A stretch of DNA of 64,000 nucleotides from positions 1,568,001 through 1,632,000 of the forward strand of contig CP000066.1 in NCBI GenBank assembly GCA_000002445.1. Direction: 5' to 3'. This document shows positions 18,000 through 60,734 of the stretch, piece by piece. The translations under genes and the position numbers were made by a program. This DNA is from Trypanosoma brucei (lineage: Eukaryota). A model generated the notes under the pieces. That model was not told the DNA's origin and did no database searches. It saw nothing but the letters and a program-made list of their open reading frames with translations. Every line of letters begins with the position of its first letter. Within the stretch, counting starts at the first letter, position 1.

Positions 18000-19472
18000 A
18001 TGCGCATTGGGAAGTATTGCGTCGTTTTTCTGCTAGTGTGGACGCAAGCAACCAAGAGAAGCGTGGGAAAACCCACAAATATTATAAATCAGGAAGAATT
18101 TAAAGCATTATGTGCTTTCGTGAATTTGGCGAATGAATCGGTAGACTACGCAGGTCTCGAAGCCGAAATCAGGGACGCGGCAGCAGATATCGGGGCTATT
18201 TTTCTTGCGTCGCAGCAAGAAAGCATTTCGAAATTGAGGGAGCAAATTGAGATCTGGCGCGAGGTTGAAGCAACCAATAACGGAGGGAACAACCGAGGCA
18301 TTAAAAAGTGGAGTGTTTGGGAGGAAGCGAGAAGAAAGCTAATAGATGAAGGCGGAACAAAATATGTGCAATGGGTTGAATTGGGCTTGAGTGATGCTGA
18401 GAAGCAGAAGATAGAGGAAGCTATGGATGAGACAGTCAAATGCATGGCGGAGGAGAACGGCTTGTGGGACACTTTGCGGGAAATGCCAGTAAAAGGAAGT
18501 ATAACAAAAGCAATATTCGGATCCAGGGAAAGGCAAGTGCAGATTATGAAAGGACGCGGTAGCCGCGAAACCGCTTGTGGCAGGGGATTATTCCCTGGAG
18601 ACTGGGCGGGCACGGCATTGAGCGCTGACTTACTGTGCCTGTGCGCCGCTACGGAACGCAGGGCCGCCACCAACGAGGGTTGCTGCACAGGATGCGAGAC
18701 AGGGGGAAATGGCGTTGCTTGGGATCCAAGGGTGCATAGTGAGGAGAGGTGGAATTTGCTTAGAAGTAAATGTGAAAAGGTCAGCAGCGGTACTCCCCTT
18801 TCAAGTCGAGCGCTGTCGGTTGCGGAGAGTACATTTTTCAACCAACTGAAGATCTCAAAAGGGTCAACATCAGGAAGACCAACGCTACTGGGTAAATTTG
18901 GAACTAGCTTTTCCGTGGGTTGTACCGGGGAAATCACCGAGAAAGAGGGACGTTGCGTTCGGTATAGCCACAGCCATGTTGACAGAAATAATCCAGCGCT
19001 ACCCTGGCTTACAAACTTAAGGGAGGCGGCAAATGCAGTAGATCAGTTGAATGCAGTTGATACAAAGCTCAAACATCTACGCGTTGGTATAGCCACCTTC
19101 CACACGAAGCATGTTGATTTTAAATCGCGTGAAAAAGGAAACGGCGGCGACCCTATTCTGGGAAGCGGTGGCGTAGAGGGTGAAGTTAACACCAATGAGT
19201 CAACGAAGGCGAACACAAACGATGGTAGAGCAAAAAAGGCTGGTGAAAGCAAAAGAACACCTGTCGACAACATTTCACATAAATGCGAAGGTTATAGGCA
19301 GGGAAAAACATGCAAAAGTCGAAAAGTGGAAACGGAATGTGACTGGGAGGAGGGTACATGCGTTGGCTCTGCCAGTGAGCCAGTCACTTCGCCTCTGAGG
19401 CAAAGACCACCTACTTCAGGGAAGGTAAACTCCATTAGATGCTCACTGAGTTTGTTTTTAATACTATTATAG
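18000..19472 (+). CDS. VSG-related (variant-surface-glycoprotein-like) protein
   Basis: 490 aa, with an N-terminal hydrophobic signal. The N-domain is helical and rich in A/E/L, and carries a ...SADLLCLCAATE... motif. The C-terminal block CEGYRQGKTCKSRKVETECDWEEGTC is Cys-rich and ends in the hydrophobic tail SIRCSLSLFLILL, consistent with a VSG C-terminal domain plus GPI signal. Length and layout fit a T. brucei VSG. Confidence 0.5.
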   Translation: MRIGKYCVVFLLVWTQATKRSVGKPTNIINQEEFKALCAFVNLANESVDYAGLEAEIRDAAADIGAIFLASQQESISKLREQIEIWREVEATNNGGNNRGIKKWSVWEEARRKLIDEGGTKYVQWVELGLSDAEKQKIEEAMDETVKCMAEENGLWDTLREMPVKGSITKAIFGSRERQVQIMKGRGSRETACGRGLFPGDWAGTALSADLLCLCAATERRAATNEGCCTGCETGGNGVAWDPRVHSEERWNLLRSKCEKVSSGTPLSSRALSVAESTFFNQLKISKGSTSGRPTLLGKFGTSFSVGCTGEITEKEGRCVRYSHSHVDRNNPALPWLTNLREAANAVDQLNAVDTKLKHLRVGIATFHTKHVDFKSREKGNGGDPILGSGGVEGEVNTNESTKANTNDGRAKKAGESKRTPVDNISHKCEGYRQGKTCKSRKVETECDWEEGTCVGSASEPVTSPLRQRPPTSGKVNSIRCSLSLFLILL

Positions 19473-22400
19473 TCATCGTGAGCGAAACCATTATTAAGAA
19501 TGGTTTAGGTTATAAAATGGTTTAGCTAACTATTTTATTCGATCTACAGGGGGAGATATGTGTTCTTACTTTATTATGTAGGACTGCTTTTGGTGGTTAT
19601 CATGATTATGTTCTTTCAGTATGTAGGCTGCCGCTGGAACCCACACATTTAAGCTGATCATGCCTCCTATGGAAGGTTTTATGGGGGTAAAATACAGGGT
19701 GTTGTGGACTAGTTTTACCTCGAAAGGGGAATGTACATCAAGAATCCGGGGGCTGTCCTTCATATCTATTTGCTCCCTGTGTGCAACTCGTTTGCTGTGA
19801 AGAAGAGTGGGGCGTTTATTCACTATTTTGTTTTTTTCTTTGCGACAACGTACTCCGAGTACTAAGGATGGACATCCACTGAGAAGTTATACGCTGGCTG
19901 GTATATGCTTTTGGTGGAGTCTATGTATACCTTGGCGCATAGAGATGGCGAAGTTGGGAAGGTGAGCGCGTTGTGTTGTCTTTGGTAAGCTAGTATACTG
20001 CTGTAAAGCGAGTTTTAATGACGGGGGAGTATTTACGGTGCGGGTATTATGTTGCTTGGATTGCATTCTTAGGAAAATTTGGACGGAGAAGTGTTCAGTT
20101 GGGAAGATTATTACCACGAAATGGAGTGGCATTCGCGAGTGTGTGCAGGAAAATATATCCTCGTAGAAAGTGTGCTGATGGGACAGTACATTTTCGTGGG
20201 GAATATAAGGCTCTTTACCACAGTATTTTTGTTGCGGGGATAACTGGTTACTCACTGGCACCAAGTGCCGCCAATCTCAAGCTCATGTCGTTGTTGGTGT
20301 TGCCTCTTTCAGTGAGAGGCAACGGCACAGACGAAGGTACATCAGCGGGTAGTGTTGCACAGCGCATAGGTTAAGGGGAATTCATTTCGGTAAGGAATTC
20401 CGCTAAACACCGGCAGCTCGAAAATTACGCACCGCTAAAGTGATAGTTGAAGCTTCAACCGCCTAAAGTTACCGTTGGAAAACAAAAATGCAATATGTGC
20501 AACAGAGGTCTTGTTTGCACATGGAAATGGGCCTGTCTTACCGTTGAACTTTCCGGCGATTTTGGAGTCACACGGCTGCCAGCCCGTCAGGTGTGCAACC
20601 AAAAGGCAACCTCACTCTGAAGAATCCCACTGCCGCATTTGCAGGTGGTAAAACTGCAATGGATAGCGGTACGGAACCGACTTCAGAAGAACGAACTGCG
20701 AGGCATAACAGCGGGGGAACGGGCACCAAGGGAGAAAGAAGCAAGGTGGTTTTCCGTGCCGCAGGGTATGTCGCTCCAGGGAAACAGGTATCTAGTTCGA
20801 CTCCTGCAAACTCTCTTAACAGCGGCGCTTGTTCCTCGCCCCATATCACCACTGACCGAGGAGCAAGCATTTTCCACTCCTCATCATACCCAATCTATCA
20901 TACAACGAATCCGATTGTTATGTCCTTTTTATACCATATAAATATATCTTCTCTTTCAAAGCAGTAAAGTGCTGGAGGAGGTCAATACGGAAACATTTAT
21001 AATTATAAAAATTGTTTCTACGAATCATTTTTCTAGAGGAAGTGCATAGAGATGCCAAATTACCCTAACCCGAACCAATTGAAGAATGTTTGAATGTGCT
21101 GAAGCACTCTCTCAAAAGATGGAAGAGGAGGTACGACATTGCCCAAATAATACAACTCCGTGTTGAAAGTAGTGAATTGAAGTACAGGCACGGATCAACA
21201 TTAGCTCGCATCAGTTTTCACGCTACAAACTAAGTCTTTTAATTGGGTTAGTGCAGCAGCCGAGATAAGCGCTGAGGTTATCAACTTGATGGAAGTAGTG
21301 TCTGTCACAAACAAACCTTCGAGGTGCGGAGCAGAGGTCTTATCGGCACGTATATTACAAATTTCGGGGAGAAAGGCTTAGGGAAAAGTAAGATTATCGT
21401 ACAAACACCCGTCAGTTGGGGGTTCGTCAAGAAAATATAAGTCAGATAGATTATAAATTAGGAATCGGGATGTATACATTTTTTTACATGATAAATTTTG
21501 GAGCAGCGGAAGTAAAGGTTTCCATGGGTAGAAGATGGGGATGTGCACGGCTAAGGTGTTGGTGTTTTTGATACTGGCATCCAGGTAGCAAGTGTAAAGG
21601 GTGCTAATTGTGATGAGTTGAAGATTCTTCGTGGTTTCCTGAGGCCTGTTTGGGGGTATTTAAATGTGGTTGACGAAGGAAGCAAGGAACGCGTTACAGG
21701 CACTTGAAACCAAGGAATCGAGTCCTTACTGGGGCGATATCCCATGGCACCGATAGGTTGTAGAACAGAAAGCACACATTCAATCAGCGACGAATGCAGC
21801 ATTTGTTCCGTGTGCGAGGAAAAAGTGAGCAACGTACTTAAAATAAACCCCGAAAACCCTTTGTCAACACCCAGGACAAAGCAAAGCGACTTGAGCAACC
21901 ACAAAGAATTGACGAATTTGGTCGAACAAGCCTCTGAGCTGTACATGAAAAACTCACTGAAAGTCAGAGTGACGGCAGAAGATTTTCAAAAGGATGCAGA
22001 GGAAATACTCTACGGTATAGAAGACAAAAAAAAGTCCAAAAGGTATGGAACTAAGAAGGGAGCAGGCTTGCGGTAAAGAAGTATCAAGCTGAAACAACTA
22101 CTTTCGGCGTGCGCTAACTATAGACCTGATGTGCTTGTGCTTTCCCCCAGAACTACCTTTAGCTGCCGCGTTGTGTTGCGATAGGTGCAACATGGAACCA
22201 AACACCGCGACCTGGGACGTAGAAACCTCCACCAAGATAACCGATTTTATGATCGAAAAATGTGGAGATTGCCCGCTTCCATAAGTGAGTTTTGTGAAAA
22301 CTATGAAGAAAAACTTCGTGAAGCTAAATGATCTCGGAAAGTTTAGGAAGAAATCCAGAGGAAAGGCTTTCTGTGCTGTAGGTTGGGACAATAGGGAAGA

Positions 22401-24951
22401 TATGCAGAGTTGCTCGGGAAGAACAAAGTCGGCAACCTGTGCGCAGTACAACACAAGCGAAGGAGGTCTTGCCTGGGGAGAGGTGTCTTAGCTAAAAAAA
22501 AAAACTAATGAAGTTACAAAATCAATTGCGAGATTTAAGACAATATGGAACTCAACGGAAAATGCAAGAGGCAACAACTAAACTGGAAAGGCAGATTGAT
22601 ACTTTTTCGAACAGGGAGGTTGACGAGGAACTGGAGCACATTCAACTGGTACAAAAACATGAGCCACCCGCAAAGCATCAGCATCCGTCTCCACGCGTGG
22701 AAGCAACGGAAGGTAATGACAAACAAGTCATGACCGAAAACTTAAACAGCAAGCCTAACGATAGAGTTAGGGCACATGCTGCGGAAGGAAACTCGGGGAA
22801 TCCTGTCTTGCAACAGGGAAATGAGTCCAAAGAAATCCCACATCAGCCACAGCGACCAAAAAGCGGCACCCAAATTGTTCCGCCTCTTAAGGTTCTTTTG
22901 CTTTTCCTGTAGAACAATACACAGGTTTTTATGTTCATAGTGATAACAGTTTGAACAACCAAATTCTCTACGGAATTCCGGAAGCTGACTTTCGATTGGA
23001 ACCACTATCCTATTTCCCCTTTCTGGAAAAGAACTACTGGTAACGAACAGAGCACACTCAGGCTCTACAGGATCAAACTCACTGGGAAAACTATTGTCAC
23101 TAAGGGTGAAAAAAAAAAATCGTGGAGCACCATCAGTGTACCTAATGGTTTCATTTGAGTGGCAAATAAATAAAATCAAAACATGAAGGAATGGGAAAGT
23201 AGTTCATTTCGGCGGAGTACGCAGAAGGTGCGAGGCTGTTGCGCTGTTAAAATAATATCTGAAACTCCACCAGAGTAGGCAACACTCGTCTTGAGAGAAA
23301 AATAACGGACATGTCACAAAAACAAATGAAAATTTCAGTCTATTGCCTATTAATCTTTTTATGATGGGTTGAATGTGAAACTACCGTAGATTTTTTCGTT
23401 CTGACTGACTGTAGGAGACAAAAGCACTTCAAATGCGCTCTCCGGCAATAACGGCCAGCGACGAGGTGAAGTGGAAGCTACAGTGAGTGACAGGTGCGTG
23501 AGAAGCGTTAACGTAAATGCCTTCGTTCACCTGTGTACAAAATGTTAAAACGTGACAAAGGAAGCGACCTCAGAAAAATACGTAAAAGTCGCGAGAACAT
23601 ATGGATCGACAAGGCAAAAAAAAACAATCGCTCAAATCCGAGATGGTGGAGGAGAGATCGAGTATTATATCGATAAAAACCACATCAGCGGTGCACACCA
23701 AAATAACGAGTGAAAGGCACACGTGAGCACAAAAGTGCGCGAGATCTAACCTAATTTAGCGGATAACCGCAGTGCTACTGCGAAAAGTAAAAGGGGACAC
23801 CTCACACCAAGAAAACAACTGTGTGTTTCGTGCAAGTTTAGAAGGGAAAATGGTAAGACCGTGACACAAAGGATCAGAGAAGTTTTCACAGTATTTTTAA
23901 AAATATGCACTCACAAAAGCTGCCGCACAAATCAGTGAGTTGCACCATAAAACCTCAAAAATATCCGCCGATAACACAACCGTGCGGTTAACCACCCGTA
24001 AGAAACAATGGACTGTGTCGCACCGGCGAAAAGGAGGTAAACAAGTTCAGAAATATGAAAAAAAAAAAGTGTATGTGACGTGCGACTGTTACATCCCTTA
24101 CAGAAGAATCAATACCCGTGACTACATTATGAACCCGGAAGTTGTATTAAGCGTCAGCCGGACGACTAAACCAGGGTGTGGCATGCATCACTAACCACAC
24201 ACGCATAAACACAAAGGGAAAGATTGCAAAATTATATCACAAGCCCCAAGGAAACACTCGAATACCATTGATCAACCAAAAACGAAGGAATGTCTAATAA
24301 CATGCAGACAGCCTTCACCAGATGGGATGTTGAATGCAGAGAGCGTTGGTTGGGAGTATATGGCATGAAAATCGTACGGACGAGAAGCAATCAAAAGTTA
24401 AATGTCACCCTTGGTGGTTCGGACAAACAGTAGTTAAGAAGTGGTAACAAGCACAAAGCGCAAAGAACAAAAGGAAGGGAGAATGATGCCAAAAAGTGAA
24501 GATGACGACCGCCGCTGAAGAGCGTGTGTATGTGACCTACAACCGGAGAAAAAAAAGGAGTCTAGCAAAAAAAAAAACGCAGCAGAGGATGCCGAGTCGA
24601 GCTAAGTTAAGGAGGGGGAAATAAAACTTGAAGCCAAAAGTACAAACCCGGAGAAGAGTAAATGTTCCCACACACTACCGGGTGATCGATCCGGAGTTAG
24701 CACCTAATTTCCGCTAACTCTTTCTCAAGTTATTACCATATTTTTACGAATATCGTTGTTTTAGCTTGCGAAAATTGTCCCGAAAGTCATCACTAGAACA
24801 AGAGTATTTTCCAGCTGCAACACCCCAAACTGTTGAGAAAAAAAAAGTTGCACCGTCTCACTTATAATAAAAAAATATCAAAAAATATATTGGAATTCAA
24901 TCAAGAACACCACTTTTCTTCTATTTATGTTTCCTTTTAAGAAGAGGAGCG

Positions 24952-25944
24952 ATGGAGAACAAATATTTAGTGTGGTGCATGTTTTTTTGTTTAACGGTTG
25001 TGGGGGGCAAAGCTAATGCAGTGAAAACAACGCTAAAGAAAGAAACGAATTGCCACACAACTGTTAAAGCACTGTTCAACAAACGTGAAAACTGTCATGA
25101 TCTGGCCTCCGATGCAACGAAAATAAATGAGGATGTTGACATCGGAACAGATGCAGATAGATGGACTGCTTGCACATGGTTAGAATATGATAAGAGGCGT
25201 ACGGAGACACAATGCATATTGAGGTTTAACAACACATATGGAGAGAAATTAGTATGCACCTACGAAACAAAGGGCAATCGCCAAGACCTAAGTTGCAAAC
25301 CAGAGGGTCGTTGCGAAGACGCTCGCGAGCGGTACCTTTTAGGGGAAGAAGGATGTCCGAAGCCTGCACCACGTGAAGAACCAAAAAGAAACAAAACCGA
25401 AAGGTGTCTTGATGAGGTTTATGGGTCATTCAGCGGTGACCAGGAGTGTGCGAAACTTAAAATAGGAAGCGAGGTCGCCGAGCAAATTATATTCAGGGAG
25501 AACGGAGATGACAAAACACCAGAATGTATAGAAGCAAGTGGCCCCCCAGAGTCGAAAGTGGTTGGAGAAGCATGCGTAATAAAGTTGCGAACCGAGCCAC
25601 ACCCATCAGAATATATTTGCAAAATGGAGGGTTCTGGTGAGGAAAGGAAAATAAAATGCACAAGAGAAACATCGAAAACAGTTCCTCAACCTACGACCAC
25701 AAGGAAGAGACGAGGCAGTACTGGATCCATGCGCAAAAGAAGTGACGACGGTGGTAACACTGAGGTCACCCTGAAAGAAGATAAAGACAAAACACAAGAT
25801 GAGGATGAAGGCCAAAAAGAAGAAAGAAAAGAAGAAAGCGGTGAAGAAACTGGTACAGCAAAAGCTCGAATCAAAAGCAAAACTTATTGGAAATCAAATA
25901 ATCCTATTATCATGCTTTTAACACTTTCGTTATTGTTGCTTTAA
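24952..25944 (+). CDS. Diverged leading member of the tandem surface-protein family (signal peptide, Cys-rich ectodomain, K/E-rich stalk, GPI-signal-like tail)
   Basis: 330 aa. It shares Cys spacing and motifs with the array genes (TQCILRFNN..CTYET, GEAC.IKLRT, ERKIKCT, WKSNNPIIMLLTLSLLLL), but the ectodomain is only about 40-50% identical. Its 3' flank is nearly identical to the flanks in the array. Confidence 0.7.
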   Translation: MENKYLVWCMFFCLTVVGGKANAVKTTLKKETNCHTTVKALFNKRENCHDLASDATKINEDVDIGTDADRWTACTWLEYDKRRTETQCILRFNNTYGEKLVCTYETKGNRQDLSCKPEGRCEDARERYLLGEEGCPKPAPREEPKRNKTERCLDEVYGSFSGDQECAKLKIGSEVAEQIIFRENGDDKTPECIEASGPPESKVVGEACVIKLRTEPHPSEYICKMEGSGEERKIKCTRETSKTVPQPTTTRKRRGSTGSMRKRSDDGGNTEVTLKEDKDKTQDEDEGQKEERKEESGEETGTAKARIKSKTYWKSNNPIIMLLTLSLLLL

Positions 25945-26389
25945 TACTGTTTAATAATAAACGGTAATGTAAACTGTTTGGAAGAAAGTATGCTTTTAAC
26001 GGAGAAGGGAAGTGAGTGTATCAAAACATTTTTCTTGTAAGACATACATTAAGGGAACATTTTTATGTTTTTTTTTTGTCACGCGTCACTGCTGTAAAAA
26101 AAACTTCTTGCGCTCAAGTTGTATCGAAAGTATTGAATTTTCAACGATGTTGTTCGGTGGGGAAGGTAAGGGGAATAGGATATATAGTTGTGTCGGGGAC
26201 GGCGTTCTGTTTGTTGAAAGGGGTAAAGAGAGGAAAAAACCCTACACCGGGTGAAAGTAACTGACTGATGAAGTTCGTTTGGATCGATAGACAAGTGGAA
26301 CTCGCCGCAAAAAGGTTGTAACAGCATTTAACCGGCACATGCGGCTTAGCGTTTTAGGTTGAGAAATGCACGTATAAAGGCACGGATGC

Positions 26390-26700
26390 TCAGGAAATAC
26401 CCTTATTTCTGATAACATAATTGGACGCTAAGCTAGAGAAGGCACAACACCAGATTCGAGAATACAACAGAAAAATGACGGGCGATGGCACCGACGAAGA
26501 GGAACAATTGAAGCGGGTCGCTGAAATCGATAACATCAATGCCCACGGCAGCCTCCTCTCGACGCGCGGACAAAACAAGAAAAAAAAATGCAGCTTCAGA
26601 AAAAAAAAAAAATGTTTCTTTGGGAAACCACTTGAAACTGTTGAGGAAAAGAGGGTTTGCCACGCCCAGCCGCTAATGATAATGTGAAATGGAAATTTAC
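26390..26700 (+). promoter_or_regulatory. Conserved ~300-nt intergenic element, a putative 3'UTR/processing regulatory element. It recurs after every array gene: 28268-28578, 30146-30390 (shortened) and 31961-32290
   Basis: The block starts about 450 nt after each stop codon and is near-identical between units. It contains an 88-codon ORF (MDAKLEKAQHQIREYNRK...) that is intact in three copies. In the copy before gene 3 the ORF is broken by a deletion, so selection is probably acting at RNA/DNA level rather than on a peptide. Confidence 0.3.
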
Positions 26701-26730
26701 AGTATCCATTTAACCTACAATATCATGATT

Positions 26731-26757
26731 CCTACACCTTTATCATTCTTCCTTTAG
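26731..26757 (+). promoter_or_regulatory. Polypyrimidine tract plus AG: probable trans-splice acceptor 11 nt upstream of the array-gene ATG. Equivalent sites are at 28609-28635, 30421-30447 and 32301-32327
   Basis: cctacacctttatcattcttcctttAG lies immediately before gcgaaaacaaaATG in every unit. This implies a very short 5'UTR. Confidence 0.45.
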
Positions 26758-26767
26758 CGAAAACAAA

Positions 26768-27829
26768 ATGAGGAAACAACATGTCATATACTACGTATTT
26801 TTCTGCTTAGGAGCCATAGGAAGCAGAGGAGAGACAGAACCAATAACAATACAAAAAGGAACGGAGTGCCACAAAGCATTGGAAACAGCGTTCACCACGC
26901 CCAAAAACTGTGAGAATGTAAGCACAGCGATAAGCGAAATGCCTGAAAATGTTAGCATTGAAACATTCCCGGGGGCATGGACCGTGTGTCAATTCATGGA
27001 AAACGAAAAAGAAAGCACAGTCACGCAATGCATTTTGAAGTTCGAAAACGCAGAGGGAAATCGAATAGCGTGCACCTACGAAACCGAGGGCGGACAAGGA
27101 AACGTAAGCTGCACACAGGAAGTGGATGCTCCGGTGGCTTATCATCCATACTGTGAGGGAGCCGAATACGATTATACTTATCATGACGAAAGCCACGGTC
27201 ATGGGAGCGGGGGCTATGAGCGGCGTTGTCCCGAGCCGGGTCCACGTCCTGCGCCACTGAATGAAGAAGCTCACAGGTGTGTTGCCGACGTCCTTGTTGC
27301 ATTTGGTGGTCACCATGAATGTGCAAAACTCTACGGCACAGATCCGGCACTCGATCCTGAAGATGTCATCTTCGGCGAGAAAGGAGATGACAAACCAAAA
27401 TGCACGGAGGCAGATCGACCCGAGGTGTCCACATTGGTTGGAGAAGCATGCGAGGTAAAATTGCGGACCAAACCAGAACCAGACGAATACTTGTGTAAGG
27501 TAGAAACCTCTAACGGTAAAAGAAAAATAAAGTGTACCCCCAAAACACCAAAAACAATTCCTCAACAAGCGGACACAGTAAAGAAACCAGATACCACTGA
27601 ATCCATGCAGAAAAAAGCTGACGATGGTGGTAAAACTGAGGTAACACCAGAAGTAAAAGATGGGCAAAAAGATGAAAAGGGTGGGAAAGAAAGGCAAGAA
27701 AAGCAAAAAATGGAAAATAATACTGGAAAAAGCAATGAAGCAGCGACAAACACTAAAACGCAGGCTTCTTCTTGGAAATCAAATAATCCTATTATCATGT
27801 TTTTAACACTTTCTTTATTGTTGCTTTAG
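26768..27829 (+). CDS. Tandem-array surface protein copy 2 (signal peptide, Cys-rich domain, K/E/T-rich stalk, GPI-signal-like C-terminus)
   Basis: 353 aa. Signal peptide MRKQHVIYYVFFCLGAIGSRG, more than 14 conserved Cys, and a stalk KKPDTTESMQKKADDGGKTEVTPEVKDGQKDEKGGKERQEKQ. The tail SSWKSNNPIIMFLTLSLLLL is a small-residue omega site followed by a hydrophobic segment. Confidence 0.75.
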   Translation: MRKQHVIYYVFFCLGAIGSRGETEPITIQKGTECHKALETAFTTPKNCENVSTAISEMPENVSIETFPGAWTVCQFMENEKESTVTQCILKFENAEGNRIACTYETEGGQGNVSCTQEVDAPVAYHPYCEGAEYDYTYHDESHGHGSGGYERRCPEPGPRPAPLNEEAHRCVADVLVAFGGHHECAKLYGTDPALDPEDVIFGEKGDDKPKCTEADRPEVSTLVGEACEVKLRTKPEPDEYLCKVETSNGKRKIKCTPKTPKTIPQQADTVKKPDTTESMQKKADDGGKTEVTPEVKDGQKDEKGGKERQEKQKMENNTGKSNEAATNTKTQASSWKSNNPIIMFLTLSLLLL

Positions 27830-28645
27830 TATCATTTAATAAACGGTAATGTAGACTGTTTTGAAGAAAGTATGCTTTTAACGGAGAAGGGAAGTGAGTG
27901 TATCAAAACATTTTTCTTGACAGACGTACATTAAGGGAACATTTTTATTGTTTACTTGCCATATTGCACTGCTAAAAAACTTCTCGTGCTGGAGTTGCGT
28001 GCGAAGTATTAGATTTCTTCACCGATTCTTTTTTGTAGCGAAGGTAAGGGGAATAGGATATGTAGTTGTGTCGGGGACGGCGTTCTGTTTGTTGAAAGGG
28101 ATAGCAGGAAGAGAAAACTCTACCCCGGGTGAAAGCAACTGACTTGTGCAGTTCGTTCGGATCGATAGACAGGTGGAAATCGCCGCAAAAAGGTTGTAAC
28201 AGCATTTGATCGGCACATGTGGTGTAGCGTTTTGGGTTGAGAAATGCACGCATAAAGGCACGGATGCTCAGGAAATACCCTTATTTCTGATAACATAATT
28301 GGACGCTAAGCTAGAGAAGGCACAACACCAGATTCGAGAATACAACAGAAAAATGACGGGCGATGGCACCGACGAAGAGGAACAATTGAAGCGGGTCGCT
28401 GAAATCGATAACATCAATGCCCACGGCAGCCTCCTCTCGACGCGCGGACAAAACAAGAAAAAAAAATGCAGCTTCAGAAAAAAAAAAAAATGTTTCTTTG
28501 GGAAACCACTTGAAACTGTTGAGGAAAAGAGGGTTTGCCACGCCCAGCCGCTAATGATAATGTGAAATGGAAATTTACAGTATCCATTTAACCTACAATA
28601 TCATGATTCCTACACCTTTATCATTCTTCCTTTAGCGAAAACAAA

Positions 28646-29707
28646 ATGAGGAAACAACATGTCATATACTACGTATTTTTCTGCTTAGGAGCCATAGGAA
28701 GCAGAGGAGAGACAGAACCAATAACAATACAAAAAGGAACGGAGTGCCACAAAGCATTGGAAACAGCGTTCACCACGCCCAAAAACTGTGAGAATGTAAG
28801 CACAGCGATAAGCGAAATGCCTGAAAATGTTAGCATTGAAACATTCCCGGGGGCATGGACCGTGTGCCAATTCATGGAAAACGAAAAAGAAAGCACAGTC
28901 ACGCAATGCATTTTGAAGTTCGAAAACGCAGAGGGAAATCGAATAGCGTGCACCTACGAAACCGAGGGCGGACAAGGAAACGTAAGCTGCACACAGGAAG
29001 TGGATGCTCCGGTGGCTTATCATCCATACTGTGAGGGAGCCGAATACGATTATACTTATCATGACGAAAGCCACGGTCATGGGAGCGGGGGCTATGAGCG
29101 GCGTTGTCCCGAGCCGGGTCCACGTCCTGCGCCACTGAATGAAGAAGCTCACAGGTGTGTTGCCGACGTCCTTGTTGCATTTGGTGGTCACCATGAATGT
29201 GCAAAACTCTACGGCACAGATCCGGCACTCGATCCTGAAGATGTCATCTTCGGCGAGAAAGGAGATGACAAACCAAAATGCACGGAGGCAGATCGACCCG
29301 AGGTGTCCACATTGGTTGGAGAAGCATGCGAGGTAAAATTGCGGACCAAACCAGAACCAGACGAATACTTGTGTAAGGTAGAAACCTCTAACGGTAAAAG
29401 AAAAATAAAGTGTACCCCCAAAACACCAAAAACAATTCCTCAACAAGCGGACACAGTAAAGAAACCAGATACCACTGAATCCATGCAGAAAAAAGCTGAC
29501 GATGGTGGTAAAACTGAGGTAACACCAGAAGTAAAAGATGGGCAAAAAGATGAAAAGGGTGGGAAAGAAAGGCAAGAAAAGCAAAAAATGGAAAATAATA
29601 CTGGAAAAAGCAATGAAGCAGCGACAAACACTAAAACGCAGGCTTCTTCTTGGAAATCAAATAATCCTATTATCATGTTTTTAACACTTTCTTTATTGTT
29701 GCTTTAG
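28646..29707 (+). CDS. Tandem-array surface protein copy 3 of the family (near-identical to copy at 26768)
   Basis: 353 aa. Differs from copy 2 by a single conservative change (T to A in ...HELT/AHGP on the antisense track, equivalent). The sense protein is identical on the track. Confidence 0.75.
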   Translation: MRKQHVIYYVFFCLGAIGSRGETEPITIQKGTECHKALETAFTTPKNCENVSTAISEMPENVSIETFPGAWTVCQFMENEKESTVTQCILKFENAEGNRIACTYETEGGQGNVSCTQEVDAPVAYHPYCEGAEYDYTYHDESHGHGSGGYERRCPEPGPRPAPLNEEAHRCVADVLVAFGGHHECAKLYGTDPALDPEDVIFGEKGDDKPKCTEADRPEVSTLVGEACEVKLRTKPEPDEYLCKVETSNGKRKIKCTPKTPKTIPQQADTVKKPDTTESMQKKADDGGKTEVTPEVKDGQKDEKGGKERQEKQKMENNTGKSNEAATNTKTQASSWKSNNPIIMFLTLSLLLL

Positions 29708-30457
29708 TATCATTTAATAAACGGTAATGTAGACTGTTTTGAAGAAAGTATGCTTTTAACGGAGAAGGGAAGTGAGTGTATCAAAACATTTTTCTTGACA
29801 GACGTACATTAAGGGAACATTTTTATTGTTTACTTGCCATATTGCACTGCTAAAAAACTTCTCGTGCTGGAGTTGCGTGCGAAGTATTAGATTTCTTCAC
29901 CGATTCTTTTTTGTAGCGAAGGTAAGGGGAATAGGATATGTAGTTGTGTCGGGGACGGCGTTCTGTTTGTTGAAAGGGATAGCAGGAAGAGAAAACTCTA
30001 CCCCGGGTGAAAGCAACTGACTTGTGCAGTTCGTTCGGATCGATAGACAGGTGGAAATCGCCGCAAAAAGGTTGTAACAGCATTTGATCGGCACATGTGG
30101 TGTAGCGTTTTGGGTTGAGAAATGCACGCATAAAGGCACGGATGCTCAGGAAATACCCTTATTTCTGATAACATAATTGTACGCTAAGCTAGAGAAGGCA
30201 CAACACCAGATTCGAGAATACAACAGAAAAGTGAAGACGGGTGATTTAAGCGGGTCACTGAAATCAAGATCATTAATACAGACGGCAGCATCAGTGGAGG
30301 GGGAAATATTTTTTTTAATACTTGAAACTGTTGAGGAAAAGAGGGTTTGCCACGCCCAGCCGCTAATGATAATGTGAAATGGAAATTTACAGTATCCATT
30401 TAACCTACAATATCATGATTCCTACACCTTTATCATTCTTCCTTTAGCGAAAACAAA

Positions 30458-31522
30458 ATGAGGAAACAACATGTCATATACTACGTATTTTTCTGCTTAG
30501 GAGCCATAGGAAGCAGAGGAGAGACAGAACCAATAACAATACAAAAAGGAACGGAGTGCCACAAAGCATTGGAAACAGCGTTCACCACGCCCAAAAACTG
30601 TGAGAATGTAAGCACAGCGATAAGCGAAATGCCTGAAAATGTTAGCATTGAAACATTCCCGGGGGCATGGACCGTGTGTCAATTCATGGAAAACGAAAAA
30701 GAAAGCACAGTCACGCAATGCATTTTGAAGTTCGAAAACGCAGAGGGAAATCGAATAGCGTGCACCTACGAAACCGAGGGCGGACAAGGAAACGTAAGCT
30801 GCACACAGGAAGTGGATGCTCCGGTGGCTTATCACCCACACTGTGGGGAACATGGAAGTGACCATGGTTATGATAACGGCTATGATGGTTATAATGGCGT
30901 GGCGTATGGTGAACTGGGTTGTCCCGAGCCTGGTCCACCTCCTGCCCAACCGAACGATGAAGCTCACAGGTGCATTGCCGACGTTTTCGCTGCATTTAGT
31001 GGCCACCTTCCATGTGCAAAATTCTACGGCACAGATCAGGCATTCGGTCCTAAGGAAGTCGTCTTCGGCGAGAACGGAAATGAAAAACCAGAATGTGCAG
31101 AAGGAAGCGAACCCCCGGAATCCAAGGTGGTTGGGGAAACATGTGAAGTAAAATTGCGGACAAAAAAACAACCAGAAGAATATGTATGTAAGGTAGAAAC
31201 CTCTAACGGTAAAAGAAAAATAAAGTGTACCCCCAAAACACCAAAAACAATTCCTCAACAAGCGGACACAGTAAAGAAACCAGATACCACTGAATCCATG
31301 CAGAAAAAAGCTGACGATGGTGGTAAAACTGAGGTAACACCAGAAGTAAAAGATGGGCAAAAAGATGAAAAGGGTGGGAAAGAAAGGCAAGAAAAGCAAA
31401 AAATGGAAAATAATACTGGAAAAAGCAATGAAGCAGCGACAAACACTAAAACGCAGGCTTCTTCTTGGAAATCAAATAATCCTATTATCATGTTTTTAAC
31501 ACTTTCTTTATTGTTGCTTTAG
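30458..31522 (+). CDS. Tandem-array surface protein, mosaic copy (central ~120 codons replaced)
   Basis: 354 aa. The first ~124 and last ~110 residues are identical to the other copies. The central segment (nt ~30828-31190; ...YHPHCGEHGSDHGYDNGYDGYNGVAYGELGCPEPGPPPAQPNDEAHRCIADVFAAF...EGSEPPESKVVGETCEVKLRTKKQPEEYVCKV) is divergent. It shares PPESKVVGE with the leading diverged gene at 24952. Confidence 0.75.
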   Translation: MRKQHVIYYVFFCLGAIGSRGETEPITIQKGTECHKALETAFTTPKNCENVSTAISEMPENVSIETFPGAWTVCQFMENEKESTVTQCILKFENAEGNRIACTYETEGGQGNVSCTQEVDAPVAYHPHCGEHGSDHGYDNGYDGYNGVAYGELGCPEPGPPPAQPNDEAHRCIADVFAAFSGHLPCAKFYGTDQAFGPKEVVFGENGNEKPECAEGSEPPESKVVGETCEVKLRTKKQPEEYVCKVETSNGKRKIKCTPKTPKTIPQQADTVKKPDTTESMQKKADDGGKTEVTPEVKDGQKDEKGGKERQEKQKMENNTGKSNEAATNTKTQASSWKSNNPIIMFLTLSLLLL

Positions 31523-32337
31523 TATCATTTAATAAACGGTAATGTAAACTGTTTGGAAGAAAGCATGCTTTTAACGGAGAAGGGAAGTGAGTGTATCAAA
31601 ACATTTTTCTTGACAGACGTACATTAAGGGAACATTTTTATTGTTTACTTGCCATATTGCACTGCTAAAAAACTTCTCGTGCTGGAGTTGCGTGCGAAGT
31701 ATTAGATTTCTTCACCGATTCTTTTTTGTAGCGAAGGTAAGGGGAATAGGATATGTAGTTGTGTCGGGGACGGCGTTCTGTTTGTTGAAAGGGATAGCAG
31801 GAAGAGAAAACTCTACCCCGGGTGAAAGCAACTGACTTGTGCAGTTCGTTCGGATCGATAGACAGGTGGAAATCGCCGCAAAAAGGTTGTAACAGCATTT
31901 GATCGGCACATGTGGTGTAGCGTTTTGGGTTGAGAAATGCACGCATAAAGGCACGGATGCTCAGGAAATACCCTTATTTCTGATAACATAATTGGACGCT
32001 AAGCTAGAGAAGGCACAACACCAGATTCGAGAATACAACAGAAAAATGACGGGCGATGGCACCGACGAAGAGGAACAATTGAAGCGGGTCGCTGAAATCG
32101 ATAACATCAATGCCCACGGCAGCCTCCTCTCGACGCGCGGACAAAACAAGAAAAAAAAATGCAGCTTCAGAAAAAAAAAAAATGTTTCTTTGGGAAACCA
32201 CTTGAAACTGTTGAGGAAAAGAGGGTTTGCCACGCCCAGCCGCTAATGATAATGTGAAATGGAAATTTACAGTATCCATTTAACCTACAATATCATGATT
32301 CCTACACCTTTATCATTCTTCCTTTAGCGAAAACAAA

Positions 32338-33399
32338 ATGAGGAAACAACATGTCATATACTACGTATTTTTCTGCTTAGGAGCCATAGGAAGCAGAGGA
32401 GAGACAGAACCAATAACAATACAAAAAGGAACGGAGTGCCACAAAGCATTGGAAACAGCGTTCACCACGCCCAAAAACTGTGAGAATGTAAGCACAGCGA
32501 TAAGCGAAATGCCTGAAAATGTTAGCATTGAAACATTCCCGGGGGCATGGACCGTGTGCCAATTCATGGAAAACGAAAAAGAAAGCACAGTCACGCAATG
32601 CATTTTGAAGTTCGAAAACGCAGAGGGAAATCGAATAGCGTGCACCTACGAAACCGAGGGCGGACAAGGAAACGTAAGCTGCACACAGGAAGTGGATGCT
32701 CCGGTGGCTTATCATCCATACTGTGAGGGAGCCGAATACGATTATACTTATCATGACGAAAGCCACGGTCATGGGAGCGGGGGCTATGAGCGGCGTTGTC
32801 CCGAGCCGGGTCCACGTCCTGCGCCACTGAATGAAGAAGCTCACAGGTGTGTTGCCGACGTCCTTGTTGCATTTGGTGGTCACCATGAATGTGCAAAACT
32901 CTACGGCACAGATCCGGCACTCGATCCTGAAGATGTCATCTTCGGCGAGAAAGGAGATGACAAACCAAAATGCACGGAGGCAGATCGACCCGAGGTGTCC
33001 ACATTGGTTGGAGAAGCATGCGAGGTAAAATTGCGGACCAAACCAGAACCAGACGAATACTTGTGTAAGGTAGAAACCTCTAACGGTAAAAGAAAAATAA
33101 AGTGTACCCCCAAAACACCAAAAACAATTCCTCAACAAGCGGACACAGTAAAGAAACCAGATACCACTGAATCCATGCAGAAAAAAGCTGACGATGGTGG
33201 TAAAACTGAGGTAACACCAGAAGTAAAAGATGGGCAAAAAGATGAAAAGGGTGGGAAAGAAAGGCAAGAAAAGCAAAAAATGGAAAATAATACTGGAAAA
33301 AGCAATGAAGCAGCGACAAACACTAAAACGCAGGCTTCTTCTTGGAAATCAAATAATCCTATTATCATGTTTTTAACACTTTCTTTATTGTTGCTTTAG
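32338..33399 (+). CDS. Tandem-array surface protein, last copy
   Basis: 353 aa, identical in translation to the copy at 28646. Confidence 0.75.
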   Translation: MRKQHVIYYVFFCLGAIGSRGETEPITIQKGTECHKALETAFTTPKNCENVSTAISEMPENVSIETFPGAWTVCQFMENEKESTVTQCILKFENAEGNRIACTYETEGGQGNVSCTQEVDAPVAYHPYCEGAEYDYTYHDESHGHGSGGYERRCPEPGPRPAPLNEEAHRCVADVLVAFGGHHECAKLYGTDPALDPEDVIFGEKGDDKPKCTEADRPEVSTLVGEACEVKLRTKPEPDEYLCKVETSNGKRKIKCTPKTPKTIPQQADTVKKPDTTESMQKKADDGGKTEVTPEVKDGQKDEKGGKERQEKQKMENNTGKSNEAATNTKTQASSWKSNNPIIMFLTLSLLLL

Positions 33400-33939
33400 T
33401 ATCATTTAATAAACGGTAATGTAAACTGTTTGGAAGAAAGCATGCTTTTAACGGAGAAGGGAAGTGAGTGTATCAAAACATTTTTCTTGACAGACGTACA
33501 TTAAGGGAACATTTTTATTGTTTACTTGCCATATTGCACTGCTAAAAAACTTCTCGTGCTGGAGTTGCGTGCGAAGTATTAGATTTCTTCACCGATTCTT
33601 TTTTGTAGCGAAGGTAAGGGGAATAGGATATGTAGTTGTGTCGGGGACGGCGTTCTGTTTGCTGGAAGTGGCAAAGGGAGGAAAAAACAAACAAACTTGT
33701 CAGATGGGAGTGGCTTTCAGGAAAACCTGTACAGTTGAAACTGGGGAAGGGAAAGTTACGGAAGGATAAAACAAATTGTGTAATCGAATTCGTCGCTGAT
33801 GATAAAACAAACGAACGGAGTTCACCACCCTGAAACCGTAGCTGCGTCTTCCTCCGTCACATACGACACAACAATGTAAGCCTAATGTTGCTGGTATAAG
33901 GAAACGCATTGTTGCGCAGGAGACGCCCACGGCCATGGC

Positions 33940-34130
33940 AGTTTAATTGGACGCTAAGCCAGCGAAAGAACTATGCCAAACTCGAGAGCACGACAGTGAT
34001 GGCTGGTGGCGCTCACGAAAATGTGTGATGGCAGGAACTCGCTGAGTTCAAGATCGTCAATGCCAACGGCAGCATTCCCTCGACACACGGAAGAAATAAG
34101 CAAAAAAAGAGATGCTGTACACAAGCTATA
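33940..34130 (+). repeat. Diverged relic of the conserved intergenic element, downstream of the array end
   Basis: ttaattggacgctaagccagcgaaag...atcgtcaatgccaacggcagcattccctcgacacacgg aligns at about 70% with taattggacgctaagctagagaagg...atcaacatcaatgcccacggcagcctcctctcgacgcgcgg from the array units. No CDS follows it. Confidence 0.5.
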
Positions 34131-35663
34131 TGCCAAAGCCGAACTCAGCCATTGTTGTCATGACGCCAAGCGGGAAAGAGAGCCAACGGCAACTTGCAAA
34201 TGCAGCGAAATAAGGATCGTTGAGAAACGACTTGGTGTGGACACCATGGGCGAAAGTTCACAGGCGCAGGAAATACCGGCGGTATATTCGGTGACGAGGC
34301 CTATGGTAAAAACCGTCACGCTATCCTAGCGCAGGTATTGGGGTGATTACGACGCGGGTGAGGGAAATGGGAAGAGGTGCAAAATGTCAGGAAATTCTTG
34401 AGAGCGTGCGAATTCTGCAAAGGTAAAAAGGACAGCAGTCGTTGACATCGGGAACAGAAGGAAGACGCAGCTTTTAACAGAATGCCGGAAGGCGCGAGCA
34501 CAGCCAAACAAATGGCAAGACGAGCTGAGAAGGCTACTGGCCACACTCTGAAATGGAAAGCCGCAGCGAGGGTGGGGGGAAACGCGCAGGTTCAGAGAGT
34601 TTTACCGGAAGAAGTCGAAAAGATGGCGAAACCTTCAGGAGTTAAAAATGTTTGGAAAAGGACAAAGCGGAGAAAATATCAGTAGTCGCCGGGAGAAAAT
34701 GCAGTGGCTGTCTTCGGACTGGTTTAGTTCGCGTCGCGACAACGACACCTCATATATAAAATTTCCTGAAAATAATGACGATGACGGCGAAAAACTCTTT
34801 TAAAACTCTTTTTTTCACAATTCCCCATTATTTTCATCTATTCCACATAACCTGTAGACGACCATGACTTGAGGTGAAAACCAGTTACACATGGGACGTT
34901 CTCGCGTCATTCCTCGTACCGGTTATTTCCATCATGTACCGCGAGGGCCATTGCACAGCGCATCATCTTCCGTTGACAGATGTTGTAGTTGGATTCCGTG
35001 TCCGGCTGTTTTGAAACGTTACGTCGGCCACCGTATGCCAGATTCCTCCTTTGTTATTGTTTTCGTTTGTGTAAAAACGCCGATACAGATGCAATTAGCA
35101 GCTCCAGTGTGACAATTGGAACAACCGATCGTATTTCGTACTTGCTTGTTTGTTTTTTCTGCGAACCTTTCAACGCATCAATCCCATCCTTTGCCAATCT
35201 CCACGCTTATGGACCCTTAAGGGGTCGTGCTATATCAATCTTCCAACACCCGGTCATCACTGTGGATTCCGCCTCCGCCTCTGATGATAACGTTCCGTGC
35301 AAAATGTGGCATTTACCCTTTTCTCGCGCAGTTATTTGCTTAGGTGATCCTTTTCGGCCGGTAGAGTTCCCCGGAATTCCGCTGCGACTCACCTGAGATC
35401 AGACCTGTATTCTGCTTAACACCACCGATCTCAACATTGAGAGCGCTCTAAAGATACCGAAAGAATCATGTTCGCACGTGCGTGGAGGATCACACCGATG
35501 TTTCCCACCATCCTGAAAACCGACGGTTTCGCCGCTTTCCCTTCTCCCCCGGGCAGGCCGTTACTGTCCGACTGCCGCAATCCTTAAGACGGGATGCGCG
35601 CGAACATTTAATCTCCCCGGCTCTCGAAGATGCACCGGATTCAAACATCGCAATGAGGTGTGT

Positions 35664-59306: not shown

Positions 59307-59487
59307 TTTAATATTACATTACCAAATATGTTATGTTATGTTTTCTTTTGTTTTTTTCGCTTCTTTGTTGCTGCGTGTATGTGGTATAATATATATGTGT
59401 ATTTGTGTTGATGTGTTTGTTAATTTCTCGTGAGATGTAAATGTTTTAAATTATCCCATATAAACTTGTTTTGTTTCTAGATAAATA

Positions 59488-60605: not shown

Positions 60606-60734
60606 TTCAATGTTATATTTTACGCTACGGTTCTGTTATTGGTATTGACCGTTTGTGATACCCGCTGCTTTTTTGTGTAATGGAGGGTATGTGTTTTTCT
60701 CTTTTATATCTTTCGTCACATGTGATTGTAGGTA

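What the first reader, a model, noticed from the sequence alone, without database searches (positions are those of the whole stretch)
24952..26260. Leading array copy has a fast-diverged ectodomain but conserved tail and flanks
Gene 1 (330 aa) is only about 40-50% identical to the other copies across the Cys-rich domain. Its last ~20 codons (YWKSNNPIIMLLTLSLLLL) and the entire ~800-bp downstream intergenic region are nearly identical to those of the other units.

Either the ectodomain is under diversifying selection while flanks are homogenised by conversion, or gene 1 is an older paralog whose 3' end was overwritten. Its upstream region (24700-24950) is unrelated to the intra-array splice-acceptor region, so it may be differently regulated.
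Basis: seen in the sequence. Interest (0 to 1): 0.5.

Follow-up and report, generated by a model that had tools for sequence, protein, structure and literature searches.

The report
Old paralogue with converted 3' end
The first gene of a published five-gene surface-protein array in Trypanosoma brucei is an old, selectively constrained paralogue whose last 18 codons and 3' flank were later overwritten by recombination with its neighbours, which is an ordinary edge effect in a tandem array.

Summary
The window is T. brucei brucei TREU927 chromosome 3. The array is Tb927.3.5690-.5730, family "Fam6": bloodstream-biased, GPI-anchored, Cys-rich orphan proteins.

- Gene 1 is 44-46% identical in protein to genes 2-5.
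- At window base 25887 (codon W313) nucleotide mismatch drops from 40% to 14% (maximum chi-square 80; permutation maximum 18.6).

"Fast-diverged" is not supported.
- Synonymous sites between gene 1 and the others are near saturation (pS 0.55-0.66), with dN/dS about 0.3-0.5.
- Gene 1 against its T. b. gambiense orthologue gives pS 0.053 and dN/dS 0.36.
- Gene 1 is therefore an old paralogue under purifying selection.

The 355-bp tail plus 3' UTR block was homogenised later. This happened before the 927/gambiense split (27 informative sites to 0).

The spacer between genes is about 67% identical to sequence downstream of the array. Its last part faintly resembles gene 1's proximal upstream. That is the junction signature of an ancient tandem duplication in place.

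The locus is already published (Jackson 2007, 2010, 2013; Carnes 2015). My one addition: the "T. b. brucei-specific" copies look ancient and were probably lost elsewhere, not recently gained. Low interest.

The parts
24952..25944 (+). Gene 1 (Tb927.3.5690; AAZ10600/XP_844159), 330 aa. Signal peptide, two Cys-rich halves, a charged stalk and a C-terminal GPI-type hydrophobic signal.
   Evidence: ORF. It is 100% identical to the TREU927 protein P0004. The gene number is inferred from gene order: TbGT11 (Tb927.3.5660) lies at 12.7 kb and VSG-related Tb927.3.5680 at 18.0 kb, and PMC4288722 gives the range .5690-.5730.
24952..25887 (+). The part of gene 1 that lies outside the array's homogenisation domain. 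It diverged long ago from genes 2-5.
   Evidence: About 57-60% nucleotide identity and 45% amino-acid identity. pS 0.55-0.66 and dN/dS 0.22-0.57. 23 of 54 four-fold sites differ.
25886..25944 (+). 'T': the W313-L330 GPI-signal tail plus the stop codon. This is the start of the homogenised tract.
   Evidence: 49/51 nt and 17/18 aa identical to genes 2-5. The maximum chi-square breakpoint falls after 25887.
25945..26240 (+). 'R1': a 3' UTR-like block present after all five genes, including after gene 5. T plus R1 together form a 355-bp direct repeat.
   Evidence: Repeat families D8 and D9. 84.6-85% identical to the four other copies. 48 of 346 aligned positions mismatch against gene 2's copy. 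Alignment shown.
26241..26767 (+). 'R2': spacer between genes and 5' flank of gene 2. It is absent at high identity after gene 5. It looks like a fusion of downstream-type sequence (26249-26601) and upstream-type sequence (26596-26755).
   Evidence: 83-98% identical to the other spacers from 26241 to 26414 (successive ~50-base windows) and 100% from 26415 on. 26249-26601 aligns to 33764-34124 with score 158 against a shuffle mean of 46 +/- 7. 26596-26755 aligns faintly to 24790-24937.
24790..24937 (+). Proximal upstream region of gene 1, with faint colinear similarity to the 3' end of the array spacer. It includes AAACTGTTGAG and a terminal pyrimidine tract plus AG.
   Evidence: Score 53 against 31.5 +/- 5.2, with 0 of 500 shuffles reaching it and controls at most 41. 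Sequence. The evidence is weak: in a wider search the score is only 1.4 sd above the shuffle mean.
26768..33399 (+). Genes 2-5 (Tb927.3.5700-.5730), with units of 1812-1880 bp. Genes 2, 3 and 5 differ at no more than one nucleotide.
30835..31190 (+). Central variant tract of gene 4. It is a third sequence type embedded in flanks that are 100% identical to the other copies (a mosaic).
   Evidence: 97 differences from gene 2, confined to alignment columns 377-734. pS 0.28-0.44 and dN/dS 0.54-0.59. It is not derived from gene 1: 30 sites favour each grouping.
33342..33688 (+). T plus R1 copy after gene 5. This is the right edge of the homogenised domain.
33764..34124 (+). 'D': sequence downstream of the array that is an old homologue (about 67% identical) of spacer segment 26249-26601. 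It is conserved directly after the single gene in T. b. gambiense.
   Evidence: The gambiense locus L001 10924-12941 matches window 33338-35359.

Best explanation
Gene 1 is the left-edge copy of an old tandem duplication that arose in place. It is not a rapidly evolving copy.

**Proposed history**
1. A segment of about 1.9 kb duplicated. It ran from about 160 nt upstream of the start codon to about 430 nt beyond the R1 block. This created a spacer made of downstream-type plus upstream-type sequence.
2. The two genes then diverged for a long time under moderate purifying selection.
3. Later, but before the TREU927 and gambiense haplotypes separated, a gene conversion or unequal crossover homogenised a short tract. 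It begins inside codon W313 and runs through the GPI signal, the stop codon and about 300 bp of 3' UTR (T plus R1, 355 bp). In the spacer after gene 1 it continues for roughly 140 bp more.
4. That 355-bp direct repeat then served as the recombination substrate. It amplified the second gene type to four near-identical copies in TREU927.
5. The same repeat probably deleted those copies in T. b. gambiense DAL972 and T. evansi STIB805, leaving gene 1 joined directly to the sequence downstream of the array.

**Shown:** the breakpoint, the levels of divergence, the orthology of gene 1 and its 3' flank with gambiense, and the homology between the spacer and the downstream sequence.

**Inferred:** the order of events, which side donated in the conversion, and loss rather than gain in gambiense and evansi.
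For: **Identity of the locus**
- Proteins are 100% identical to TREU927 chromosome 3 proteins.

**Old divergence with constraint**
- pS 0.55-0.66 and dN/dS 0.22-0.57 per domain.
- 23 of 54 four-fold sites differ at identical residues.
- The orthologue pair gives pS 0.053, pN 0.019 and a ratio of 0.36.

**Recombination breakpoint**
- Chi-square 80.1 at base 25887, against a null maximum of 18.6.

**The 3' block is not conserved by constraint**
- Between 927 and gambiense, R1 differs by 8.7-9.1%.
- Neighbouring non-coding DNA differs by 6.5-7.4%, and synonymous sites by 5.3%.

**The homogenisation predates the subspecies split**
- 27 sites group (gene 1, gambiense) against (gene 2, gene 5). None conflict with that grouping.

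**Junction signature of a duplication in place**
- Spacer 26249-26601 is homologous to 33764-34124 (score 158 against 46 +/- 7).
- Spacer 26596-26755 aligns faintly with gene 1's upstream 24790-24937.
- The two homologies abut within a few bases of each other.

**Single-gene state elsewhere**
- In gambiense, the gene 1 orthologue is followed directly by the sequence found after gene 5.
- Published: the extra copies are absent from the gambiense reads (PMC2854126) and the duplication is absent from T. evansi (PMC4288722).

**General precedent**
- In T. brucei arrays, coding regions often vary more than UTRs, and conversion tracts span stop codons (PMC1855330).
Against: - Only two haplotypes were available (TREU927 and DAL972). 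The gambiense sequence here is flagged low quality and carries many private differences.
- With no outgroup, neither the direction of the conversion nor loss versus gain can be polarised.
- The similarity between gene 1's upstream region and the spacer is weak. It is not significant when a wider upstream region is searched.
- Evidence that the gambiense R1 end is of the gene 5 type rests on only 2 sites.
- Synonymous divergence could be inflated if alignment in the variable regions is imperfect. However, the four-fold-site estimate at identical residues is still 0.43 uncorrected.
Confidence: 0.7

Rival explanations
1. Recent duplication specific to T. b. brucei, followed by very rapid adaptive divergence of the ectodomain. 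The flanks stay alike because they are young or homogenised. 2010.
For: [quoted passage not shown]
- The family has no homologue outside T. brucei.
- The proteins are predicted surface proteins, where host-driven selection is plausible.
Against: - Synonymous and four-fold sites between gene 1 and the array type are near saturation. That is at least 10 times the 927/gambiense synonymous divergence.
- dN/dS is below 0.6 in every domain.
- The non-coding spacer and its downstream homologue are only about 67% identical.
- Rapid adaptive change would not saturate silent and non-coding sites.
Confidence: 0.08
2. No recombination took place. The GPI signal and the 3' UTR are alike because purifying selection on anchoring and on mRNA regulatory elements kept them unchanged while the rest drifted.
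For: - GPI signals and 3' UTR elements are functional in trypanosomes (established knowledge).
- The family shows bloodstream-biased transcript levels (PMC3605285 Table S1).
Against: - Silent positions in the tail are also identical (49/51 nt).
- R1 is the fastest-diverging segment between 927 and gambiense: 8.7-9.1%, against 6.5-7.4% in flanking non-coding DNA.
- The change in identity is a step, not a gradient.
- High identity continues into the spacer beyond any plausible UTR element, reaching 100% from 26415.
Confidence: 0.05
3. The single gene 1 is the ancestral state. An already divergent paralogue from another locus (for example a subtelomere) was inserted downstream of gene 1 by ectopic recombination through the shared T plus R1 block, and was then amplified in the TREU927 lineage.
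For: - The single-gene state is seen in two other Trypanozoon genomes.
- The array lies at the boundary between core and subtelomere-like DNA. ESAG1 and VSG-type fragments lie at 58-62 kb.
- The neighbouring VSG-related gene is also present in one genome and absent in the other.
Against: - No other family member or relic was found in the window, in the TREU927 protein set or in 1.84 billion representative proteins.
- The spacer is built from sequence homologous to this locus's own downstream region and, faintly, its own upstream region. That is the junction expected from a duplication in place.
- Ectopic conversion was found to be rare for T. brucei arrays (PMC1855330).
Confidence: 0.12

Closest known systems
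Tb927.3.5690-.5730 array, 'Fam6' of the African-trypanosome cell-surface phylome. Array 20 in Jackson 2007; Table 1, the accompanying text and a supplementary figure in Jackson et al. 2010.
   Same: It is the same locus. There are five tandem genes for Cys-rich proteins with a signal peptide and a GPI signal. They are specific to T. brucei, lie next to a strand-switch region and show bloodstream-biased transcripts. The first gene is the orthologue of the single gene Tbg972.3.6170.
   Different: The published account treats the extra copies as a recent T. b. brucei-specific gain with rapid divergence. The silent-site and spacer comparisons here point to an old paralogue pair and later loss elsewhere. 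The text of the papers read here does not describe the exact breakpoint (25887), the 355-bp T plus R1 repeat or the fused origin of the spacer. The supplementary figure itself could not be viewed.
Concerted evolution and allelic gene conversion in T. brucei tandem arrays (Jackson 2007). Examples are BARP, where the coding sequence is more divergent than the UTRs, and the PGK array with its chimaeric middle copy.
   Same: Coding regions are more divergent than the flanking UTRs. Coding sequence and UTRs have different histories. Conversion tracts span the stop codon. Copies are mosaics. Gene 4 here is such a mosaic.
   Different: Here the contrast is extreme: near-saturated silent sites against 86-100% identical flanks. 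It affects only the left-edge copy.
Edge effect in tandem arrays evolving by unequal crossing-over (classical concerted-evolution theory, from general knowledge).
   Same: The terminal repeat escapes homogenisation. Only the part of gene 1 that lies inside the recombining domain (25887 onward) resembles the array.
   Different: This was not tested at population level here. Only one array haplotype is available.

Membership tests
Fam6 / Tb927.3.5690-.5730 (T. brucei cell-surface phylome) | Sequence identity to the TREU927 chromosome 3 proteins AAZ10600-AAZ10604 | tested here: met
   Gene 1 is 100% identical to P0004. The gene 2/3/5 type matches P0003 and gene 4 matches P0002; these two matches were judged by reading the sequences against each other, not with a tool.
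Fam6 / Tb927.3.5690-.5730 (T. brucei cell-surface phylome) | N-terminal signal peptide, C-terminal GPI-type hydrophobic signal and no internal transmembrane helix | tested here: inconclusive
   Hydrophobic N- and C-termini are visible in the sequence, and the phylome table scores both signal peptide and GPI as 'y'. No dedicated predictor was available here.
Fam6 / Tb927.3.5690-.5730 (T. brucei cell-surface phylome) | Five tandem copies adjacent to a strand-switch region | tested here: met
   There are five + strand genes. A - strand ORF follows at 39474-40361 and GC skew changes sign after about 34 kb. The strand switch itself is inferred from these two observations.
Fam6 / Tb927.3.5690-.5730 (T. 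brucei cell-surface phylome) | Restricted to T. brucei | tested here: met
   Only T. brucei proteins were found among 5.8 billion clusters and 1.84 billion representatives with a profile search. There is no Pfam family.
Gene-conversion / unequal-crossover mosaic in a tandem array | A statistically supported breakpoint with different divergence on the two sides | tested here: met
   Maximum chi-square 80.1 at base 25887, against a permutation maximum of 18.6.
Gene-conversion / unequal-crossover mosaic in a tandem array | Similarity of the tract is not explained by selective constraint | tested here: met
   Silent sites are identical in the tail. R1 diverges between orthologues at or above the rate of the neutral flanks.
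Gene-conversion / unequal-crossover mosaic in a tandem array | Donor and recipient identified (direction of transfer) | not testable with these tools
   No outgroup or additional strain assemblies could be reached.
Positively (diversifying) selected surface antigen | dN/dS above 1 in the exposed domain | tested here: not met
   dN/dS is 0.22-0.57 between paralogues, 0.36 between orthologues and 0.54-0.59 in the gene 4 variant tract. Pairwise averages cannot exclude a few selected sites.
Known structural families of trypanosome surface proteins (VSG, ISG, three-helix-bundle types) or 6-Cys-type domains | Sequence-profile or fold match | tested here: inconclusive
   There is no Pfam match. The AlphaFold2 model has mean pLDDT 40.6, so no fold search was attempted. 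The similarity between the two halves of the protein is weak (E = 0.035).

The most novel reading that the evidence does not exclude
The array-type genes (Tb927.3.5700-.5730) are not a recent T. b. brucei invention. They are an ancient second member of the family, kept as a presence/absence polymorphism in Trypanozoon. The 355-bp tail-plus-UTR repeat repeatedly deletes or amplifies them, so some lineages (DAL972, STIB805) carry only gene 1. If the two protein types have different host-facing functions, the repeat would act as a built-in switch for surface-protein repertoire between strains.
Probability: 0.45. Interest if true: 0.35.

Novelty: already known. Interest (0 to 1): 0.2.

Why it matters
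Fam6 is one of the few T. brucei-specific, bloodstream-biased predicted surface families, and its function is unknown. It matters whether its 'subspecies-specific' copies are new adaptive inventions or old genes that are differentially lost. That choice changes how these loci are used to explain differences in host range and virulence between T. b. brucei, T. b. gambiense and T. evansi. The locus is also a clean worked example of an array-edge copy escaping concerted evolution. Neither point opens a new kind of biology.

Tried and rejected
- **First unit alignment.** I used overlapping segments and the alignment came out off-register. I discarded it and redid the analysis per segment.
- **Pfam scan of the three protein types.** Only sub-threshold noise.
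- **AlphaFold2 on the 5-sequence alignment.** Mean pLDDT 40.6 and pTM 0.25. This is too poor for a fold search, so none was run.
- **Internal-repeat test of the two Cys-rich halves.** E = 0.035. Suggestive only.
- **Bacterial promoter/terminator scan.** Counts equalled the shuffles, and the scan is irrelevant for a trypanosome.
- **tRNA and Rfam scans of the window.** Nothing found.
- **Literature searches by UniProt/RefSeq accession and by Tb927.3.5710-5730 or Tb427 identifiers, and for 'Fam6'.** No further functional work was found.
- **Is the gene 4 variant tract a conversion from gene 1?** Rejected. 30 sites favour each grouping. There is only a small local excess near 31091-31127.
- **Search for relic family members elsewhere in the window.** None found.
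- **Other T. brucei strains.** They could not be reached. The protein clusters hold only TREU927 and DAL972 entries.

Full report
**What is there**

The window carries five + strand genes:
- gene 1 at 24952-25944 (330 aa);
- gene 2 at 26768-27829;
- gene 3 at 28646-29707;
- gene 4 at 30458-31522;
- gene 5 at 32338-33399 (genes 2-5 are 353-354 aa).

Units repeat every 1812-1880 bp. Each protein has a hydrophobic N-terminus, two Cys-rich halves, a charged Lys/Glu-rich stalk and a C-terminal hydrophobic tail of GPI-signal type.

**Identity of the locus**

- Gene 1 is 100% identical to TREU927 protein AAZ10600/XP_844159.
- The other two protein types match AAZ10601-10604, on a 1,653,225-bp contig. 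This was judged by reading the sequences against each other.
- The window is therefore T. brucei brucei TREU927 chromosome 3.
- Upstream neighbours are SPT16, an enoyl-CoA hydratase, an NF-X1 zinc-finger protein, a protein kinase, TbGT11 (Tb927.3.5660) and the VSG-related gene Tb927.3.5680.
- The array is Tb927.3.5690-.5730 (PMC4288722).
- It is 'Fam6' of the cell-surface phylome: signal peptide yes, GPI yes, five copies in T. brucei and none in T. congolense or T. vivax. Transcript values are higher in bloodstream forms (6280, 8311 and 9500) than in procyclic forms (2404 and 582) (PMC3605285 Table S1).
- A profile of the five proteins found nothing else among 1.84 billion representative proteins.
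- Pfam has no match.

**Check of the observation**

- Gene 1 is 44-46% identical to the other copies overall, and 45% (95/213) across the Cys-rich ectodomain.
- From codon W313 to the end, 17 of 18 residues and 49 of 51 nucleotides are identical.
- A maximum chi-square scan of gene 1 against gene 2, over the coding sequence plus 3' flank, puts the breakpoint after base 25887. Mismatch is 0.402 on the left and 0.137 on the right. Chi-square is 80.1, against a highest value of 18.6 in 1000 permutations.
- The downstream spacer is 92.6% identical overall to the other spacers, but in layers:
  - about 86% over 25945-26240;
  - 83-98% in successive ~50-base windows over 26241-26414;
  - 100% over 26415-26767.
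- After gene 5 the high-identity similarity stops at 33688.

'Entire spacer nearly identical' is somewhat overstated.

**Fast divergence or old divergence?**

- Nei-Gojobori estimates for gene 1 against gene 2 give pS 0.55-0.66 in the signal peptide and Cys-rich domains, and 0.50 in the stalk. dN/dS is 0.22-0.57 in every domain.
- At four-fold sites within codons for identical residues, 23 of 54 differ. The random expectation is 0.73.
- The tail has pS 0.086.
- The T. b. gambiense orthologue was fetched with its locus L001. It differs from gene 1 at 11 synonymous and 15 non-synonymous sites: pS 0.053, pN 0.019, ratio 0.36.
- The split between gene 1 and the array type is therefore at least ten times older than the 927/gambiense haplotype split.
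- Both comparisons show moderate purifying selection.
- There is no sign of omega above 1. Pairwise averages cannot exclude a few selected sites.

**Why the 3' end is alike**

Constraint does not explain it.
- Silent sites in the tail are identical.
- Between 927 and gambiense, R1 differs by 8.7-9.1%. Neighbouring non-coding DNA differs by 6.5% upstream and 7.4% downstream. Synonymous sites differ by 5.3%.
- The step-like boundary is what a conversion or crossover tract looks like.

The event is not recent.
- Within T plus R1, 27 informative sites group gene 1 with gambiense against genes 2 and 5. No site supports a conflicting grouping.
- Gene 1's 3' flank is therefore orthologous to the gambiense flank, and the homogenisation predates that split.
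- Gene 1 and gene 2 differ at 13.9% of positions in this block.

**Origin of the array**

- The spacer segment 26249-26601 is homologous, at about 67% identity, to sequence downstream of the array at 33764-34124. BLAST gives E = 5e-15 for the 170-nt core. The local alignment score is 158, against 46 +/- 7 for shuffles.
- The rest of the spacer, 26596-26755, aligns colinearly but faintly with gene 1's proximal upstream region 24790-24937.
  - The score is 53 against 31.5 +/- 5.2 in a 250-nt comparison, with 0 of 500 shuffles reaching it.
  - Eleven control upstream regions scored at most 41.
  - The match is not significant in a wider search.
- The two homologies abut within a few bases of each other.
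- A spacer made of downstream sequence joined to upstream sequence is the expected junction of a tandem duplication that arose in place.
- Its level of divergence matches the silent-site divergence of the genes.
- Both upstream regions end in a pyrimidine tract and an AG about 10 nt before the ATG. The trans-splicing layout therefore looks alike; this is an inference.

**The single-gene state elsewhere**

- In DAL972, the gene 1 orthologue (Tbg972.3.6170) with a gene 1-type T plus R1 is followed directly by the sequence that follows gene 5 in TREU927.
- Jackson et al. 2010 report this locus explicitly. They describe one gene in gambiense and five in T. b. brucei. They say the first array gene is the orthologue, that the others are absent from the gambiense reads, and that identity is '55.1%'. 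They read this as recent multiplication with rapid divergence (PMC2854126).
- Carnes et al. 2015 report the same single-copy state in T. evansi STIB805.
- Given the silent-site data, I think loss is more likely than recent gain. The mechanism would be recombination between the T plus R1 copy after gene 1 and the one after gene 5.
- Two sites near the end of R1 (26217 and 26221) tie gambiense to gene 5 rather than to gene 1, as that model predicts. Two sites are thin evidence.

**Layers inside the array**

- Genes 2, 3 and 5 differ by no more than one nucleotide.
- Gene 4 carries a roughly 360-bp central tract of a third type, with pS 0.28-0.44, inside flanks that are 100% identical.
- That tract is not derived from gene 1: 30 sites favour each grouping.
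- The same process, homogenised flanks around an unhomogenised core, is therefore at work within the array.
- Jackson 2007 described this as a general property of T. brucei arrays. Examples are BARP, with coding-sequence distance 0.335 against UTR distances 0.073 and 0.038, and conversion tracts that span stop codons.
- That paper lists this array as number 20, with average Ds 0.41 and Dn 0.22.

**Verdict**

- Diversifying selection is not supported.
- The locus and its main feature are already in the literature.
- My modest additions are the exact breakpoint, the 355-bp repeat as a probable recombination substrate, the fused origin of the spacer, and the argument that the extra copies are old rather than new.
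- Protein function remains unknown. The structure model was too poor to use.

Noticed in passing
L001 10001-10962 (T. b. gambiense DAL972, FN554966.1), equivalent to window 25124 and 25820-25823: The gambiense orthologue of gene 1 has a 1-nt and a 4-nt deletion relative to TREU927. The second shifts the frame, so the annotated protein loses the GPI-signal tail. NCBI flags it as a low-quality protein. It may be a real pseudogene or a sequencing error.
   Followed up: partly
window 18138-21882: This 3.7-kb segment holds most of the VSG-related gene Tb927.3.5680 (ORF 18000-19472, Pfam VSG_B). In the gambiense locus it is replaced by about 250 bp. This is a second presence/absence difference right next to the array.
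   Followed up: partly
window 11396-35359 against L001: Non-coding divergence between TREU927 and DAL972 is unusually high around the array, at 6.5-9%. The TbGT11 coding sequence about 11 kb upstream differs at only 6 of 1167 bases. This could be deep haplotype divergence near the chromosome-core boundary, or poor sequence quality at the end of the gambiense chromosome assembly.
   Followed up: partly
window 30835-31190 (gene 4, Tb927.3.5720): Gene 4 is a mosaic. A central tract of a third sequence type (97 differences from gene 2) sits inside flanks identical to the other copies. The motif PPESKVVGE near 31091-31127 is shared with gene 1.
   Followed up: yes
window 29708-30457: The spacer between genes 3 and 4 is 750 bp rather than about 816 bp. 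It has about 66 bp of gaps, and the 26465-26664-equivalent region is more divergent.
   Followed up: no
window 26807-27706, 28685-29584, 30497-31399, 32377-33276 (- strand): Each of genes 2-5 carries a 299-300-aa open frame on the antisense strand. Gene 1 has none of 100 aa or more. This is probably a by-product of the purine-rich coding strand (AT skew +0.2 to +0.29) rather than a gene.
   Followed up: no
window 39474-40361 (- strand): A 295-aa ORF with hydrophobic N- and C-termini and a Ser/Gly-rich body lies on the opposite strand, beyond the convergent strand switch. It has no Pfam match. It may be another predicted surface protein.
   Followed up: no
window 58206-61709: A partial VSG_B-domain ORF (58206-59306) and an ESAG1-family ORF (60735-61709) show that the window runs into subtelomere-like sequence. 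The gambiense chromosome 3 assembly ends about 2 kb after the gene 1 orthologue.
   Followed up: no
gene 1 residues ~33-118 and ~151-238: The two Cys-rich halves share cysteine spacing and a predicted helix-then-strands pattern, which suggests an internal duplication of a six-Cys module. The sequence support is weak (E = 0.035) and the structure model is of low confidence.
   Followed up: partly
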